From the sequence record KP682389: a DNA stretch of 64,000 nt. One strand, written 5' to 3'. Position numbers: made by a program. Below, one piece after another: positions 51,001 through 60,000 of the stretch. This DNA comes from Escherichia phage PA45. Position 1 is the first letter of the stretch. The number at the start of each line of letters is the position of its first letter.

Positions 51001-54000
51001 TTCAAAAGGCCAGGGGGGAACAGGCCAGAGATGAAAGTGCTTCATCTGCATCTCAGTTTATCCGTGGACTGAAACAGAATTACGCCCAGTAATTCACGAT
51101 ATTCCATTAATACCATTTCCTGATGCCCGGCCATTGTGCCGGGTTTTTTTATGGAGTCTGTATGGCCTATTCAGAGGAACAGCGTCCTGAGGCGCAACTC
51201 GGTAACCAGAATCGTAACAGCCTGAACATTCAGCAACCCGGCGAAACTGACAGCTATGAAGCATTTTTCTCTGATCCGAATCGCTGGAAGGATAACAGTA
51301 CGTCGTTCAGCCTGGGCGATGTATTGCCAACAATGGGTAAAGGTTTCGCCCAGTCCGTCCGGGGAACAGGGGAAATGGCCCGTGGACTCGGTGATGCGAT
51401 GATTCAGAGCCCGGTAAAAACAGGGGCGCGTATTTTAAATGAGTTCAGCCGTATGGGGCTGCCGGGTGTCGCAACTGTGCAGGATATTTTTGCCGGTGGC
51501 AGCAGGGGGGCTGATGAGGTCATCGATACCCTGCCTGATGGCAAAAACGCGGTTACTGATACTGTCGGTAAAGGTCTGAAGGCAACCGGTAAGGCTGTCA
51601 GTGATGGTGCCAAAGCCACTGATGAATGGCTGACCGGTAAGATGTCGCCGGGTGCAGTTCGTGCGCTGAATACGCCGATGACCGAAGGCTATAATGATTC
51701 TGCGGTCTGGGTGGCGAAGGGTGTAAACCTGATTGGTGCGCTTGTACCTGATATGGTTGCTGGCGGTGTGGCTAGAAAGGTGGGTGATGTCACACTGCGA
51801 AAAATGCTGACCGCCGGGCTGGAGAAAAAATACATCGCGGCAGGGATGCAGCCGGAAAGAGCCACGGCACTGGCAGCAGAAGCTGTCGATAAAAAAATGC
51901 CGGATTTATTCCAGGCGGGCCTGATCACCCATTCCACTGTAAGTGCACAGGGGCAGAGTGCAATGGCGGCAGCAGATGCTGTTCTTAATGCTGATTACTC
52001 TGAGCTGGCGCAGTCACCGAAATTTCAGCAGACGTTTTTGTCCATTGACGCCGACCCGCAGCACGCACAGCTTACTGATCGCCAGAAAATGGATCTGGCA
52101 AAAGAGCGTGTTGCCGATGAGGTGCGCGCGCAGCTGGCAACCGATCCTGAATTGCTGGCTGTGAATGCCATGGCGGCAAAACTGGGTGACGCACAACTGT
52201 TTAATCTGGTGACACGAGGCACAGCGAAGACCGTTAAAAGCGGCATTGTCAGAAATGCCACGGAACAGGGGGCGATTAATGCGGCGCAGGGCGGCTATTC
52301 ACGCTATCAGGAAAACACGGCATTGCGTGAGACCGCCGGAATGGGTGTGTCACCGTGGGAGGGCGTGGCTGACGCAACGATCGAAGGTGCAGCCTTTGGT
52401 GCTGCGATGGGGGCTCCATTCGGTGCGGTTGCCGGATATCGTGGCAGACGTCAGGCCGCAGAAGAAACCGCCATGCGTGATGCTGAAACCGTGCAGCAGG
52501 ACGACGCAGCCCCGCAACCAGAATCTGTTGATCCGGTGGCGCAGCAGCGTGAATCCATGCAGGGCATGAATCGCGAGCAGCTTCTGGAGCAGTATGCTGA
52601 TGCGGATATGGCAACAGAGGGTGACGCATCCGCAGCTCATCGCCGGGAAGCTGCCAGCCAGTTGTTGAATGAACTGGACGAACAGACGAAGCGACAGGCT
52701 GTGATGAATGAGCTGAAGGCGAAGCCGCGTTCTGAACTGCTTGAGGAATACCGCAGACTCAGCCAGAAAGAGGGGCGCACCGAGACTGAAGAACAACAGT
52801 TTCAGGCAATACGAGAAGTCATTCGCCCACAACAGGAAGTGACGCCGGAAGCACAGTCACAGCCTGAAAATGCGGAGGATGGTAACGGGAGCATTTACCC
52901 GACGGTGCGGTTCCGGGACCCGAATGAAGTCCGCATTGAAATTAACGGGAATGGTGCGTCCAGACCAGCGGAACGCATTGAGAAGGTGCGCCCGGACAAC
53001 CGTTATTTCACGGATGAGAAAAGCGCCATGGGGAGTGATGTTTTCCGTAATGCCGCCGCCACCGGCCTGAAACCGTCCGTAGTGAAGAAAGGCGAGAATC
53101 AGTATGCCGTTGAAATGGATAATCCTGCGTTCTCTGAAGATGTGGCAACGGAAACCATTAACACCCTGGCTGACGGAGAGCGTATTGCTGATGCTGACCC
53201 GATGGAGCAGCCCGCGTTCATGCGTGACCCGCGATTCCGTGGTTTCACGGGGGATGATACGGAGGTACAGGCCCGCCTTGCCCGTGGCAACGCGCCGACG
53301 GCAGAGGAGCTTGTACGTTCACAGATGGCTGAAGGTGATGCCGGTCCGACAGCACAGGAGTTAACTGAGCGTCCACGCCTGCCCGCTCCCGGCGATATTC
53401 ATCCCGGACAGGGATATCCGTTACCGGGAGAAGTGGCGCGTACGCCGGATGAAAATCAGGCCGGACGTGGTGGTCGTTTTACCACAACCGGTGAGGTTAA
53501 GGGCCAGAGTTTCCAGAAAGGACAAGCTCCGGCACCGGAAAACGCCGCTGGTCGCCAGGGGGAAACACTCGAGGGTGACATGGTTCGTCGTGGTCTGCCG
53601 TCACCGGATGCGCAGAACGCGACAGCACCGGTACGTGAAGGGCTACCGGCTCCTGACATTGCGCGTAATGTTCGTATGCCTCAGCCTGAATCACTTCCCC
53701 GCACTGTACGGGACTCACTGCCTGAGCTTGCACAGCAGGCAGAAGTACGCCGACAGGCCGGAGGAAATCGTGACATCCCGCAGCCTGAGACAATCGCACC
53801 TGAATCTGAAACAACTGTCTCTACTGACAGGGAAGCTACCGTGCGCGGAGGTGAAGTCAGGGGCAAAAAAATTGAAGACTTTGGTGAAGAAATTAAGGGC
53901 GCGGCAAAACACCGTTATGCACAGCTTGCTGAAACACTGGGTAAAACGCTGGAAGACAGGGATTATGCCACGCAGCCGCTGAGCAAACTGTTCCCGAAAC

Positions 54001-57000: not shown

Positions 57001-60000
57001 AGCGCTACGTTCAGCCACTGGCTAAATTACTGGCGGACTACAAAATTGCGCAGGCCGATCTGGATGAGTACCTCTACGCCCGTCACGCGCCGGAACGTAA
57101 CGCGCATATCGCGAAAATCAACCCGAAAATGCCGGACGGCGGTTCGGGGATGACCAACGCGGAAGCGGCGGAAATCATGCAGCGTGTACGTAACAGTGGC
57201 AAACAGGCACAGTATGACCGTCTGGCAGGGATTATTGACGATATGCTGGCCCGTCGCCGTGAGCTTATCCGTGAGGCCGGACTTGAAGAGAACGGTGTGG
57301 TGGATGCCTGGCAGAACGCCTACCGTTACTACGTTCCCCTGAAAGGTCAGGATGTTGACGGTGTGGTGTCACTGCCCCGTACAGGTAAGGGCTTCACCAT
57401 CGGCGGACGTGAAAGCAGGCAGGCCATGGGGCGTGCATCCCGGGCACAGTCTCCGTCCACTCAGGCGATACAGGACCTGAGCGAATCGCTGATCCGCCAT
57501 CGCAAAAACGAAGTGGGTAACGCCTTCCTGAAACTGGTGCAGGATAATCCCGACAAGGATTACTGGCAGGTATTCACCGATGACAGACCGGATACCATGC
57601 GGACGATTGCAGAGCGCAAGGACCAGGAAACTGGTGAAACCATTCGCGAAGTTGTCGAACGCCCTGTACCGATGGCAATGATGGCAGACCGGTACTTCAC
57701 CACCAAAAAGAACGGCAAAACGTACTACATCAAACTCCATGATCCGCGCCTGATGCGTGCGATGAAGAGTATGGGACCGGAAACCAGCAATGCCTTTGTT
57801 CGTACGCTGGGGAAAGTTAACCGCTTCCTGGCAACGGTGAACACGTCGTATAACCCGGAATTCCTGGTCAGTAACTTCATCCGTGACGTGCAGACGGCGG
57901 TGATGAACCTGAAGGCGGAGCAGGGAAGGAGCGACGGTAAACTGAAAGGGCTGGATAACTTATCCGCCCTGGCTGTGGTGAAAGACAGCCGTTCTGCCAT
58001 GTCAGCCGTATACGCCAGTCTGCGTGGTAAAACCCTCACGGGAAAAGGTGCACAGTGGCAGAAGGTGTGGAAAGAGTTTGTTGAGGACGGAGGGAAAACC
58101 GGCTGGTTTAACATGGGTGACCTTGAAGGCCAGCAGAAGGAAATGGATCGCCTTGTCTCACTGGCGAAGGGGGGATGGAAAGGCCAGAGTATCGGTGCAT
58201 GGAATTCGTTCCTTAACCTTGTCGAGGATGCCAACGGTGCGGTTGAAAACGCTCTGCGTCTTTCTGCCTATAAGCACGCCCGTGATGCCGGTTTGTCACG
58301 CCAGCAGGCGGCGTCTCTTGCCAAAAACATGACGGTGAACTTTAACCGTCGTGGTGAGCAGGGGGCGCTGATGAATTCGCTGTACATGTTCGCCAACGCC
58401 AGCATTCAGGGAACGGCAAATCTGGTGAGAACGCTCGGACATCTTAATGGTGAGGGACCTTTACTGGAGCGCCTTCGCTGGAAGAATCTGAATGTTCCGC
58501 AGAAAATCGCGCTTGCCGCTGTGGGAGCAGGTTATCTGCTTGGCTCGCTTAACCGCAGCGTGGCGGGTGAGGATGATGACGGGGTTAACTGGTATGACAA
58601 GGTGCCGTCTCATGTGAAAGAGCGTAACCTCGTCATTATGAAATCGGTGTTCGGGGGCAAGGCCGGAGAGTACTGGAGTATTCCTCTGCCTTACGGGTAC
58701 AACGTTTTCTTCCTGCTCGGGCATACTGCTGAAGGTGTGGCGGCGGGTGACCTGACGGCGTCCCGTGCTGCCGGTAATGTTGTTGGTGGTGTGCTTGGTG
58801 CATTCAGCCCGATTGGCAGTGAGACGTCGGAAACACTGTCCGGGGCATTGCTGAAAAATGCAGCGCCGACCATTCTGCGTCCGTTTGCGAACCTTGCCAT
58901 GAATGAAAACTTCATGGGGGCGCAGATTTACCAGGAGAACATGCCGTTTGGTACACCAAAACCTGACAGCCAGCTGGGAAGACGTTCAACGCCAGAAGCG
59001 TACAAGGCGTTTGCATCCTGGCTGAATGCGTTCTCAGGTGGCAGCCAGTACCGTCCCGGCGCGGTGGATATCACACCGGAATCGCTGAAATTCTGGATTG
59101 ACTATATCTCCGGAGGGACAGGGCGCTTCATTTCCAAAACCACGGATGCGGCGGTGAAATCGCTGAATGGTATTGATATACCGGAACAGCAGGTGCCCTT
59201 CCTGGGGAAAATTTCGGGGGAGGTGATGCCGTATGCAGACCAGCAGAAGATGTACGACCGGATGACAGAGATTGCGCAGTATCACGCAGAGCTGAAGAGT
59301 CTGACCGGTGCAGAAAGAACGGCGTTCATTGACGAGAACAACGGAAAATTGTCGATGAACGGGCTTATGCAGGATACCCGGAAGAGACTGAAGGATTTGC
59401 GTAAACAGCGTGATGCCATTTACGCCGACAGTACTCTCAGTCTGGCGCAACAGTCGGCGATGGTGAAATCGGTAGAGCGGGATATGAAAATTGCCGTGGA
59501 TCGGTTTAACCGCGAGTACAACAAAAAAGTGGGAGTGGATTAACAGAAATGGCCCCGTACGGAAGTGCGGGGCTGATTAAGAAATAAACACTCATTGACC
59601 TGTAATAACCGGAGCTATTAACATATAGTCAGAAGAGCATTTCATGTGATACAGAGAGCCGATTTATGTTTAATGAAGAAAAAGTTGCGCAAATGGCAGC
59701 GTATTTGCTGAAAAAGCATGGCGGATCTATGCGTTTCATTAAGCTGAAGCAGCAACGGTAATGGCGAATAGCATTTATGAGCAAAATAATCTTGATATGT
59801 TATTAGGCGATCTGATGTAACCGGGATGATGTTCACCCCTTATCGCCGGGGAACAATACCGGCAATCAGAATTGCGGATGGAACTATTCAGGCCCACGAT
59901 GATATCGATGAGGAGTTTTTTCAGCCAGTATTGGATGGCTTTCTTATATCCAAATATACGCCATTTGACATCCTCCACGCCCTGAAGGACGGGGTTTTAC

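What the first reader, a model, noticed from the sequence alone, without database searches (positions are those of the whole stretch)
51162..59543. 2793-aa single-frame protein with a zincin motif at the end of the late region
An 8.4-kb uninterrupted frame follows a strong terminator and has its own GGAG RBS. It contains HEWFH (nt 55011-55025, about residue 1284) in a context compatible with a zincin-like metallopeptidase, within an otherwise unrecognised low-complexity and helical sequence. Its size and position after the internal virion proteins suggest an injected multidomain (polyvalent) protein, which in other short-tailed phages carries anti-defence or host-takeover activities. The domain content is not resolved by eye.
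Basis: partly seen in the sequence, partly recalled or inferred. Interest (0 to 1): 0.65.

Follow-up and report, generated by a model that had tools for sequence, protein, structure and literature searches.

The report
Giant virion polyprotein of Stx phages

Summary
A single frame runs 51162-59543 (2,793 aa), behind a terminator hairpin and a GGAG ribosome-binding site, and HEWFH sits at residue 1284.

The window is an Stx2 prophage, 100% identical to VT2-Sakai/Sp5 and PA27/PA36. The gene is Sp5 ORF80 (ECs1242), equivalent to phi24B gp47. Published work already shows it is essential for infectivity and abundant in virions.

Pfam calls four polyvalent-protein domains: LPD5, LPD1, MuF_C and LPD38. 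The HEWFH region is a genuine zincin:
- The motif is invariant in 39 homologues at 33-63% identity to the query.

- A second zincin at HEIIH 1551 with E1607, unknown to Pfam, invariant in 145 homologues.
- Conserved N- and C-terminal modules flank a swappable middle.
- The whole family avoids cysteine.

Best reading: an encapsidated ejection polyprotein carrying two peptidases and a predicted RNase. Injection and catalysis are inferred, not shown. The finding is already known, and interest is modest.

The parts
51125..51150 (+). Terminator-like hairpin plus T-run just upstream. It also contains the upstream ATG (51123) that databases use as the start.
   Evidence: for the 13-residue extension.
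51153..51156 (+). GGAG ribosome-binding site, 5 nt before the ATG at 51162.
51162..59543 (+). Coding sequence of the 2,793-aa giant protein (Sp5 ORF80 / ECs1242, orthologue of phi24B gp47). It has no cysteine.
51642..52385 (+). Conserved N-terminal module (aa 161-408), shared at about 28% identity with the N-terminus of the Vibrio phage giants. A hydrophobic segment lies at aa 181-200, and a Gly/Ala-rich stretch follows at about aa 408-425.
52479..53837 (+). Acidic, Pro/Ala-rich, low-entropy linker (aa ~440-892). No domain hit.
53838..55511 (+). Zincin-1 module (aa 893-1450): helical N-part, then LPD5, then peptidase core, then LPD1. The same ~560-aa unit exists as a stand-alone protein in other bacteria.
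54312..54761 (+). Pfam LPD5 (aa 1051-1200).
   Evidence: E 6.5e-45.
55011..55025 (+). HEWFH active-site motif of zincin-1 (aa 1284-1288), in the context AHYE...HEWFHSLDN.
55242..55481 (+). Pfam LPD1 (aa 1361-1440). It contains the invariant helix EMAARAFE (E1375, R1379, E1382), the likely third zinc ligand, so it reads as the C-terminal half of zincin-1.
55641..56171 (+). Zincin-2 (aa ~1494-1670), a second HExxH+E domain with no Pfam model. HEIIH is at nt 55812-55826, and the helix GEFLAHMAE carries E1607 and E1614.
56409..56678 (+). Pfam MuF_C (aa 1750-1839), the PBECR predicted endoRNase domain of Iyer et al.
56823..59534 (+). Conserved C-terminal module (aa ~1888-2791), mostly alpha-helical and always at the extreme C-terminus of relatives. 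It contains a hydrophobic helix at aa 2445-2467.
58587..59204 (+). Pfam LPD38 (aa 2476-2681), inside the C-terminal module.
   Evidence: E 7.6e-48.

Best explanation
The gene encodes an encapsidated ejection (pilot) polyprotein of the short-tailed Stx phages. It is made late and packed inside the T=9 head.

**Delivery parts (inferred).** The conserved N-terminal module (aa 161-408) and the conserved ~900-aa helical C-terminal module (aa 1888-2791, containing LPD38) are the parts needed for packaging, exit through the portal and tail, and building or joining the trans-envelope conduit. This parallels the N- and C-terminal regions of the N4 virion RNA polymerase.

**Payload.** The middle is a swappable cargo. 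In this phage it holds:
- Two gluzincin-type metallopeptidases: zincin-1 (H1284/E1285/H1288 with E1375 or E1382) and zincin-2 (H1551/E1552/H1555 with E1607).
- One MuF-C/PBECR domain, a predicted metal-independent endoRNase.

**Proposed action.** The most likely job of the two peptidases is to cut the polyprotein itself, and perhaps host proteins, once it has left the capsid, freeing the modules.

**Shown here:** gene structure, domain content, active-site conservation, the peptidase fold, and the conserved-ends/variable-middle architecture.

**Taken from papers:** essentiality and presence in virions.

**Inferred:** ejection into the cell, self-processing, and RNase activity.
For: **Identity and published phenotype.**
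- The gene is 100% identical to VT2-Sakai/Sp5.
- Deleting Sp5 ORF80 abolishes plaques and lysogens. DNA is still packaged, heads look normal, and the defect is complementable (PMC5155283).

**Presence in virions.**
- The phi24B orthologue has 10,962 peptide-spectrum matches, second only to the capsid protein.
- Peptides map from residue ~59 to ~2758, so every module is in the particle.
- The protein is absent from the cryo-EM map.
- Related LPD38 giants are virion proteins in phage JC1, and one is critical for efficient infection (knock-down) in phage PTXU04.

**Domains.** Pfam finds LPD5, LPD1, MuF_C and LPD38.

**Zincin-1.**
- Active-site residues are invariant in 39 sequences.
- The model has pLDDT 85 and pTM 0.76.
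- The AHYE...HExxHxxD pattern matches the phage-type peptidase clade described by Iyer et al..

**Zincin-2.**
- 360 cluster representatives match, nearly all inside proteins of 1.5-6 thousand residues.
- H1551 is conserved at 99%, E1552 at 100%, H1555 at 100% and E1607 at 100% in 145 sequences.

**Architecture.**
- The C-terminal module is shared with Vibrio, Ralstonia, Burkholderia and Bacillus phages.
- The N-terminal module is shared with the Vibrio phages.
- The Vibrio phage D62 giant keeps both ends but has weak, sub-threshold methyltransferase matches in the middle.
- In 46 of 110 giants the C-terminal module is detected, ending a median of 3 residues from the protein's end (one detected stretch ends 577 residues short).

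**Cysteine.**
- There are none in 2,793 residues (P about 2e-10 at the frequency of the neighbouring late genes).
- There are none in the D62 giant.
- There are none in 99 of 110 related giants.
- This fits a protein that is threaded unfolded and crosses the oxidising periplasm.

**Precedent.** In the N4-like phage DEV, the giant polymerase is proposed to be ejected with two partner proteins, and its C-terminal domain binds the periplasmic tunnel protein.
Against: - No experiment shows that the protein leaves the capsid or enters the cell.
- The Sp5 deletion mutant also fails to bind anti-tail-fibre antibody. Mondal et al. read this as a tail-assembly defect. Loss of a purely internal ejection protein need not give that phenotype.
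- Hydrophobic segments are weak. Only two reach a Kyte-Doolittle mean of 1.2.
- Self-processing is not demonstrated. In phi24B the highest counts are in the top gel slice, so much of the protein is full-length in stored virions. Counts in lower slices could be smear or decay.
- The two zincins align to each other only weakly (hhalign E 0.012).
Confidence: 0.6

Rival explanations
1. It is a tail-assembly or tail-channel structural protein: a scaffold, plug or ruler needed to attach the tail and fibres to filled heads. On this reading it is not a protein delivered into the cell.
For: - The Sp5 ORF80 deletion gives filled, normal-looking heads that do not bind anti-tail-fibre (ORF67) antibody. 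The neighbouring essential genes ORF70, 71 and 79 behave the same way.
- The phi24B authors note 'internal tail contents' that constrain tail orientation in intact particles but not in ejected ones.
Against: - No density in the symmetric or asymmetric tail reconstruction is assigned to it, despite its high abundance.
- Two conserved peptidase active sites and an RNase-type domain have no obvious role in a static tail part.
- The middle of the protein is exchanged between related phages while the tail machinery is conserved.
- This reading is partly compatible with the main explanation. An internal protein lodged in the portal-tail channel could be needed for stable tail attachment.
Confidence: 0.2
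2. It is mainly an anti-defence or host-takeover effector (a 'DarB-like antirestriction' protein), injected to protect incoming DNA or shut down the host.
For: - PHROG 'DarB-like antirestriction' matches aa 2351-2681.
- Relatives in Burkholderia phages are annotated this way.
- Polyvalent proteins as a class are predicted counter-defence weapons.
- The MuF-C domain, and the segment after it, are among the most variable parts between Stx-phage alleles.
Against: - The DarB similarity is confined to the C-terminal LPD38 region. No methyltransferase or helicase domain is present.
- The gene is required for plaque formation and lysogenisation in Mondal et al.'s assays, which a pure counter-defence factor would not be.
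- No defence system target is known.
Confidence: 0.12
3. The metallopeptidase digests peptidoglycan cross-links so that the ejected conduit can reach the inner membrane. This is the proposal of the phi24B preprint.
For: - The proposal is made in the phi24B preprint.
- Ejection proteins of other podoviruses carry wall-degrading domains. The JC1 relative has a lytic-transglycosylase-like domain at its N-terminus.
Against: - The preprint assigns the peptidase activity to MuF-C, which Iyer et al. define as an RNase-fold domain.
- The real peptidase domains resemble MtfA, PPEP and lethal factor, which cut polypeptides, not cell-wall peptides.
- No lysozyme, transglycosylase or amidase domain is detected in this protein.
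Confidence: 0.08

Closest known systems
Sp5 ORF80 (ECs1242) / phi24B gp47 / VT2-Sa orf71: the giant late protein of Traversvirus Stx phages
   Same: It is the same gene. It is 100% identical over 8,382 nt to VT2-Sakai and to many O157 Stx2a phages. It has the same position at the end of the late operon, the published essentiality and the published virion proteomics.
   Different: Nothing in the sequence differs. Databases start it 13 codons too early. The published domain readings need correcting: Mondal et al. cite an AAA+ ATPase, and the preprint calls MuF-C a metallopeptidase.
Polyvalent proteins of phages and conjugative elements (Iyer, Burroughs, Anand, de Souza, Aravind 2017)
   Same: It is a large single polypeptide joining unrelated domains from that repertoire (zincin peptidases, PBECR/MuF-C, LPD1, LPD5, LPD38), encoded among virion genes.
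   Different: It is essential rather than accessory. Its second peptidase domain has no Pfam model.
N4-like virion RNA polymerase (N4 gp50, DEV gp71)
   Same: Both are giant proteins of about 3,000 residues packed in a T=9 podovirus head. Both have N- and C-terminal regions for injection or encapsidation flanking an enzymatic middle, with zincin domains near the C-terminal part.
   Different: It has no RNA polymerase domain. Only a marginal PHROG match to the N-terminal region is seen (E 0.006). The phage is temperate and lambdoid and uses host polymerase.
MtfA / Pro-Pro endopeptidases / anthrax lethal factor catalytic domain (lethal-factor-like gluzincins)
   Different: Sequence identity is 11-13%. 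There is no sequence-level hit to any solved structure. A long variable insert separates the two helices, and extra conserved residues (H1263, D1291) are present.
P1 DarB and 'DarB-like' giants of Bcep22-like, GP4-like and Vibrio podophages
   Same: They share the C-terminal ~900-aa module with LPD38 (26-41% identity) and are virion-associated.
   Different: The DarB hallmark methyltransferase and helicase domains are absent here. The payload differs.

Membership tests
Polyvalent protein (Iyer et al. 2017) | Two or more unrelated domains of the polyvalent repertoire in one large polypeptide | tested here: met
   Pfam LPD5, LPD1, MuF_C and LPD38 are all above the gathering score, plus two zincin domains.
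Polyvalent protein (Iyer et al. 2017) | Encoded with phage virion/late genes or with conjugative transfer genes | tested here: met
   It is the last gene of the late operon, after tail-fibre and virion protein genes.
Polyvalent protein (Iyer et al. 2017) | Delivered into the recipient cell together with the DNA | not testable with these tools
   Only virion presence is reported, for the phi24B orthologue. Entry into the cell has not been measured.
Zincin (gluzincin) metallopeptidase: domain 1 | HExxH on a helix, conserved across homologues | tested here: met
   H1284, E1285 and H1288 are invariant in 39 sequences. They lie in model helix 393-408.
Zincin (gluzincin) metallopeptidase: domain 1 | Third zinc ligand (Glu) on a following helix | tested here: inconclusive
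   Invariant E1375 and E1382 sit on model helix 484-502.
Zincin (gluzincin) metallopeptidase: domain 1 | Zincin fold (mixed sheet plus active-site helices) | tested here: met
Zincin (gluzincin) metallopeptidase: domain 1 | Zinc binding and peptide-bond hydrolysis | not testable with these tools
   This needs biochemistry.
Zincin (gluzincin) metallopeptidase: domain 2 | HExxH plus downstream Glu, conserved | tested here: met
   H1551 99%, E1552 100%, H1555 100%, E1607 100% and E1614 93% in 145 sequences.
Zincin (gluzincin) metallopeptidase: domain 2 | Zincin fold, or profile similarity to a known zincin | tested here: inconclusive
   hhalign against zincin-1 gives E 0.012 with the motifs in register. 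There is no Pfam hit. No structure prediction was run for this domain.
MuF-C / PBECR predicted endoRNase | Match to the family profile | tested here: met
   Pfam MuF_C E 1.3e-17, 64 bits against a cutoff of 27.6.
MuF-C / PBECR predicted endoRNase | [quoted passage not shown] | tested here: inconclusive
   By eye, a His ('VKH' and variants) and the Ser of 'ASVYG' recur in most variants that cover those columns in alignment A3. That alignment reports no invariant or >=90% conserved columns. I did not map these residues onto the published family alignment.
P1 DarB antirestriction protein | DNA methyltransferase and helicase domains | tested here: not met
   No such Pfam or NCBIfam hit. Similarity is limited to the C-terminal LPD38 region.
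N4-type virion RNA polymerase | T7-like single-subunit RNA polymerase domain | tested here: not met
   No polymerase domain. Only a PHROG match at E 0.006 to the N-terminal region.
AAA+ ATPase (COG1483, cited by Mondal et al. 2016) | Walker A P-loop G-x4-G-K-[ST] | tested here: not met
   No Walker A motif. No ATPase family hit.
NCBIfam CLCA_X (zincin related to the self-cleaving CLCA peptidase) | Score above the curated cutoff | tested here: not met
   148.6 bits against a cutoff of 260 over aa 1182-1437. It is related but not a member.
Podovirus ejection proteins (T7 gp14-16, P22 gp7/16/20, DEV gp71-73) | Sequence or fold similarity to a characterised ejection protein | tested here: not met
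Podovirus ejection proteins (T7 gp14-16, P22 gp7/16/20, DEV gp71-73) | In the virion, not part of the ordered shell or tail, and lost on DNA release | not testable with these tools
   The first two points are reported for phi24B. Loss on ejection has not been measured.

The most novel reading that the evidence does not exclude
The giant protein is a self-dismantling ejectosome polyprotein.

- It is threaded unfolded out of the head.
- Its conserved end modules build the envelope-spanning conduit.
- Its two zincins then cut it at defined sites to release a PBECR RNase and other pieces into the cytoplasm.

The near-total absence of cysteine across about a hundred related giants would then be a general sequence signature of phage proteins that must pass through the tail and periplasm unfolded. 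That signature could be used to find ejected proteins in other phages.
Probability: 0.3. Interest if true: 0.6.

Novelty: already known. Interest (0 to 1): 0.3.

Why it matters
This protein takes up about 13% of the genome of the phages that spread Shiga toxin genes among E. coli. It is essential for their infectivity, yet its mechanism is still unknown.

This analysis gives precise handles for experiments:
- two conserved zinc-peptidase active sites (E1285, E1552);
- a predicted RNase domain;
- clear module boundaries.

These let one test whether the protein is an ejected, self-processing delivery device.

The analysis also corrects two published domain readings and the database start codon. 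None of this changes the kind of thing it is. It remains a known member of the polyvalent virion proteins.

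Tried and rejected
- **Sequence and profile searches against solved structures.** Only marginal or low-complexity matches (best E 0.006, TolA) turned up for the whole protein, the zincin-1 module or the C-terminal module.
- **hhalign of zincin-2 against zincin-1.** The result was uninformative with a shallow alignment and only borderline with a deep one (E 0.012). I rest the zincin-2 call on motif conservation, not on this.
- **AAA+ ATPase reading (Mondal 2016).** Rejected: there is no Walker A motif and no family hit.
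- **'DarB-like antirestriction' and 'virion RNA polymerase' labels.** Rejected as functional assignments, because each match covers only a terminal module.
- **The stand-alone Pectobacterium homologue of the 1460-1850 region.** It appears to lie among scattered phage-like genes, next to a truncated LPD1 fragment, and says nothing about function.
- **Band-resolved peptide data for phi24B gp47.** I looked for these to test processing. The supplement held gives per-band counts only per protein and total counts per peptide, so cleavage could not be assessed.
- **Copy number from spectral counts.** This proved too crude to report.

Full report
**1. The observation**

The six-frame listing shows one ORF on the + strand from 51123 to 59543. 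The ATG at 51162 lies 5 nt after a GGAG at 51153-51156. It is preceded by a G+C-rich hairpin at 51125-51144 with a T-run.

Translation from 51162 gives 2,793 residues and a single terminal stop. HEWFH is at residues 1284-1288, nt 55011-55025.

A shuffled protein of this composition carries 0.03 HExxH motifs on average, and none of 2,000 shuffles had two. The real protein has two.

**2. What the window is**

The gene is 100% identical over all 8,382 nt to VT2-Sakai (Sp5) and to many O157:H7 Stx2a phages. Its coordinates are those of phages PA27 and PA36 minus 21.

- 185 phage records carry it at 90% identity or more.
- 427 of 5,426 complete E. coli genomes carry it, almost always full length.
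- RefSeq names it 'LPD5' or 'LPD38 domain-containing protein'.
- It is the last gene of the late operon, after the tail-fibre genes and several small virion genes.

**3. What is already published**

Mondal et al. 2016 (PMC5155283) deleted this very gene, Sp5 ORF80 or ECs1242, '2,793 amino-acid residues'. The mutant made no plaques or lysogens and was complementable. It packaged DNA and had normal-looking heads, but did not bind anti-tail-fibre antibody. They filed it under tail formation and mentioned an AAA+ ATPase COG.

A 2026 preprint on phi24B found the orthologue, gp47, abundant in purified virions but absent from the cryo-EM maps. It proposed an encapsidated ejection protein. In its supplementary table:
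- gp47 has 10,962 peptide-spectrum matches, second only to the capsid protein.
- Most of those matches are in the uppermost gel slices.
- Peptides map from about residue 59 to about residue 2758 in the preprint's numbering, so all modules are in the particle.

Iyer et al. 2017 (PMC5512222) defined the LPD domains, the zincin-like peptidases and the PBECR/MuF-C RNase-fold domains of 'polyvalent proteins'.

Related LPD38-bearing giants are virion proteins in the Burkholderia phage JC1. Another is critical for efficient infection (knock-down) in phage PTXU04.

| Region (aa) | Content | Evidence |
|---|---|---|
| 1051-1200 | Pfam LPD5, E 6.5e-45 | |
| 1182-1437 | NCBIfam CLCA_X, 148.6 bits against a cutoff of 260 | |
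| 1361-1440 | Pfam LPD1, E 1e-23 | |
| 1750-1839 | Pfam MuF_C, E 1.3e-17 | |
| 2476-2681 | Pfam LPD38, E 7.6e-48 | |

CLCA_X is a zincin subfamily. It spans the HEWFH region as one unit but stays below its cutoff.

No Walker A motif or ATPase family is found, so the AAA+ reading is not supported.

**5. The first zincin**

Homologues of aa 1040-1460 are numerous. Many are stand-alone proteins of about 470-650 residues that begin about 150 residues upstream of my first query. The natural unit is therefore aa 893-1450.

In 39 sequences, the homologues 33-63% identical to the query, these are invariant:
- the motif FGFRGVQFG
- LAFGARG
- A-H1263-Y-E
- H1284-E-W-x-H1288-x-x-D1291-N
- E1375, R1379 and E1382

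The His before the motif and the Asp three residues after it are exactly the signature that Iyer et al. give for a widespread phage-type peptidase clade.

An AlphaFold model of aa 890-1460 is confident, with mean pLDDT 85 and pTM 0.76. HEWFH lies on a helix, and the invariant glutamates lie on a later helix.

- Foldseek against the PDB found nothing.

The invariant Glu helix lies inside Pfam LPD1. LPD1 is therefore best read as the C-terminal half of this peptidase. This is an inference.

**6. A second zincin**

An exhaustive search with aa 1480-1700 found 360 cluster representatives. Nearly all lie inside proteins of 1,500-6,000 residues.

In 145 aligned domains, conservation is as follows:
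- H1551: 99%
- E1552: 100%
- H1555: 100%
- E1607: 100%
- E1614: 93%

This is the classical HExxH plus downstream Glu pattern. Pfam has no model for the domain, either in this protein or in ten short relatives. Profile comparison with zincin-1 is only borderline (E 0.012), although the motifs and preceding strands align.

All catalytic motifs of both zincins are identical in five divergent Stx-phage alleles.

**7. MuF-C**

The preprint calls MuF-C a metallopeptidase. Iyer et al. define it as a PBECR domain, a predicted metal-independent endoRNase with a His and a Ser/Thr at the active site.

By eye, a His and the Ser of 'ASVYG' recur in most variants that cover those columns. The alignment itself reports no invariant or >=90% conserved columns. 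I did not map them onto the published alignment, so activity stays a prediction.

**8. Conserved ends, swappable middle**

- The last ~900 residues are shared with giants of Vibrio phages (41% identity), Ralstonia GP4-like and Burkholderia Bcep22-like podophages (26-28%), and Bacillus Page-like phages (22%).
- Residues 161-408 are shared with the same Vibrio giants.
- The Vibrio phage D62 protein has 3,066 residues. Its middle shows only weak, sub-threshold methyltransferase matches, not peptidases or MuF-C.
- Salmonella and Edwardsiella versions carry an extra phosphoribosyltransferase-like insert after LPD1.
- Some E. coli alleles carry a MuF-C only about 50% identical to this one.
- Among five Stx-phage alleles, aa 1900-2793 are 92-100% identical. 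Variation is concentrated at aa 151-200, 851-1150 and 1801-1850.
- HMMs built from my alignments detect the C-terminal module in 46 of 110 giants. It ends a median of 3 residues from the protein's end (one detected stretch ends 577 residues short), and zincin-2 lies a median of 180 residues upstream of it.

The C-terminal module models confidently (pLDDT 82.7, pTM 0.79) as a large, mostly helical body. It has no informative solved relative.

**9. Cysteine**

- The protein has no cysteine in 2,793 residues.
- The other late ORFs of the window average 0.79%, which gives P about 2e-10 for zero.
- The D62 giant also has none.
- 99 of 110 related giants have none, and 108 of 110 have two or fewer.
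- The only cysteines in database versions lie in the 13-residue extension from the upstream ATG inside the terminator hairpin. This argues that 51162 is the true start.
- Iyer et al. do not mention this property.

I read it as fitting a protein that must travel unfolded through the tail and the oxidising periplasm. This is an inference.

**10. Mechanism and rivals**

The best-supported reading is an encapsidated ejection polyprotein. The conserved ends serve packaging, exit and conduit formation. The payload is two peptidases and an RNase-type domain, and the peptidases most likely process the polyprotein itself. The N4/DEV virion polymerase offers the closest functional parallel.

Against this reading:
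- Ejection is unproven.
- The deletion phenotype includes loss of tail-fibre labelling.
- Much of the protein is full-length in stored virions.

The rivals are:
- a structural tail or assembly role;
- a mainly counter-defence role;
- peptidoglycan digestion.

I rank these lower, for the reasons given in their entries.

**11. Verdict**

However, the gene, its family, its essentiality and its presence in virions are all already in the literature.

- confirmation of the peptidase fold;
- a second, Pfam-unannotated zincin;
- the module architecture;
- the corrected start codon;
- the cysteine-free trait.

Noticed in passing
window 51123-51161: GenBank and RefSeq start this gene at the upstream ATG (2,806-2,807 aa). 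That ATG lies just before the terminator hairpin, which the extension reads through. It adds MPGHCAGFFYGVC, which holds the only cysteines of the protein, so the start is probably annotated 13 codons too early.
   Followed up: yes
window 51162-59543; L002:2506-11703; proteins P0146-P0294: Cysteine avoidance is family-wide. There are 0 Cys in this protein, 0 in the 3,066-aa Vibrio phage D62 giant, and 0 in 99 of 110 related proteins of 1,500 aa or more. The 2017 paper that defined polyvalent proteins does not mention it.
   Followed up: partly
window 55641-56171: The second HExxH+E domain has at least 360 cluster representatives in public data but no Pfam model. It usually sits about 180 residues upstream of the conserved C-terminal module.
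   Followed up: yes
window 49827-51092: The 421-aa gene just upstream (Sp5 ORF79, essential) has no family assignment. Its phi24B orthologue, labelled 'transcription factor?', gives 1,634 peptide matches in purified virions. It may be a partner of the giant protein.
   Followed up: partly
window 49565-49813: An 83-aa ORF annotated 'bacteriocin' matches a Gly-zipper family below its gathering threshold and weakly matches segments of endolysin and tape-measure families. It gives few peptides in phi24B virions.
   Followed up: no
window ~7144-8412 and ~27055-28323: Two copies of an insertion-sequence-like element lie 19,911 bp apart, each with paired ORFs of 108 and 296 aa. This is consistent with the extra length of the 64-kb PA27/PA36 phage relative to 62.7-kb relatives. 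The element's family was not checked.
   Followed up: partly
proteins P0134, P0142, P0032 (Salmonella, Edwardsiella relatives): These versions carry an extra domain after LPD1 that looks like a phosphoribosyltransferase (one is so named by its source). This is an example of payload swapping.
   Followed up: no
window 51612-51761, 53712-54611, 56562-56711 (aa 151-200, 851-1150, 1801-1850): Between Stx-phage alleles, identity falls to 47-72% in these three stretches while the rest stays at 76-100%. This points to mosaic exchange within the gene.
   Followed up: partly
L007:8001-9725 (Gemmobacter caeni): A stand-alone LPD5-zincin-LPD1 protein sits beside an H-NS gene, Tn7-like TniQ/TniB/transposase genes, PcfJ and a 1,707-aa helicase. 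This is a mobile-element setting, not a phage.
   Followed up: partly
preprint 10.64898/2026.04.10.717836: The phi24B preprint describes MuF-C as a metallopeptidase that digests peptidoglycan. The family's authors define MuF-C as an RNase-fold domain, and the true peptidase domains lie elsewhere in the protein.
   Followed up: yes
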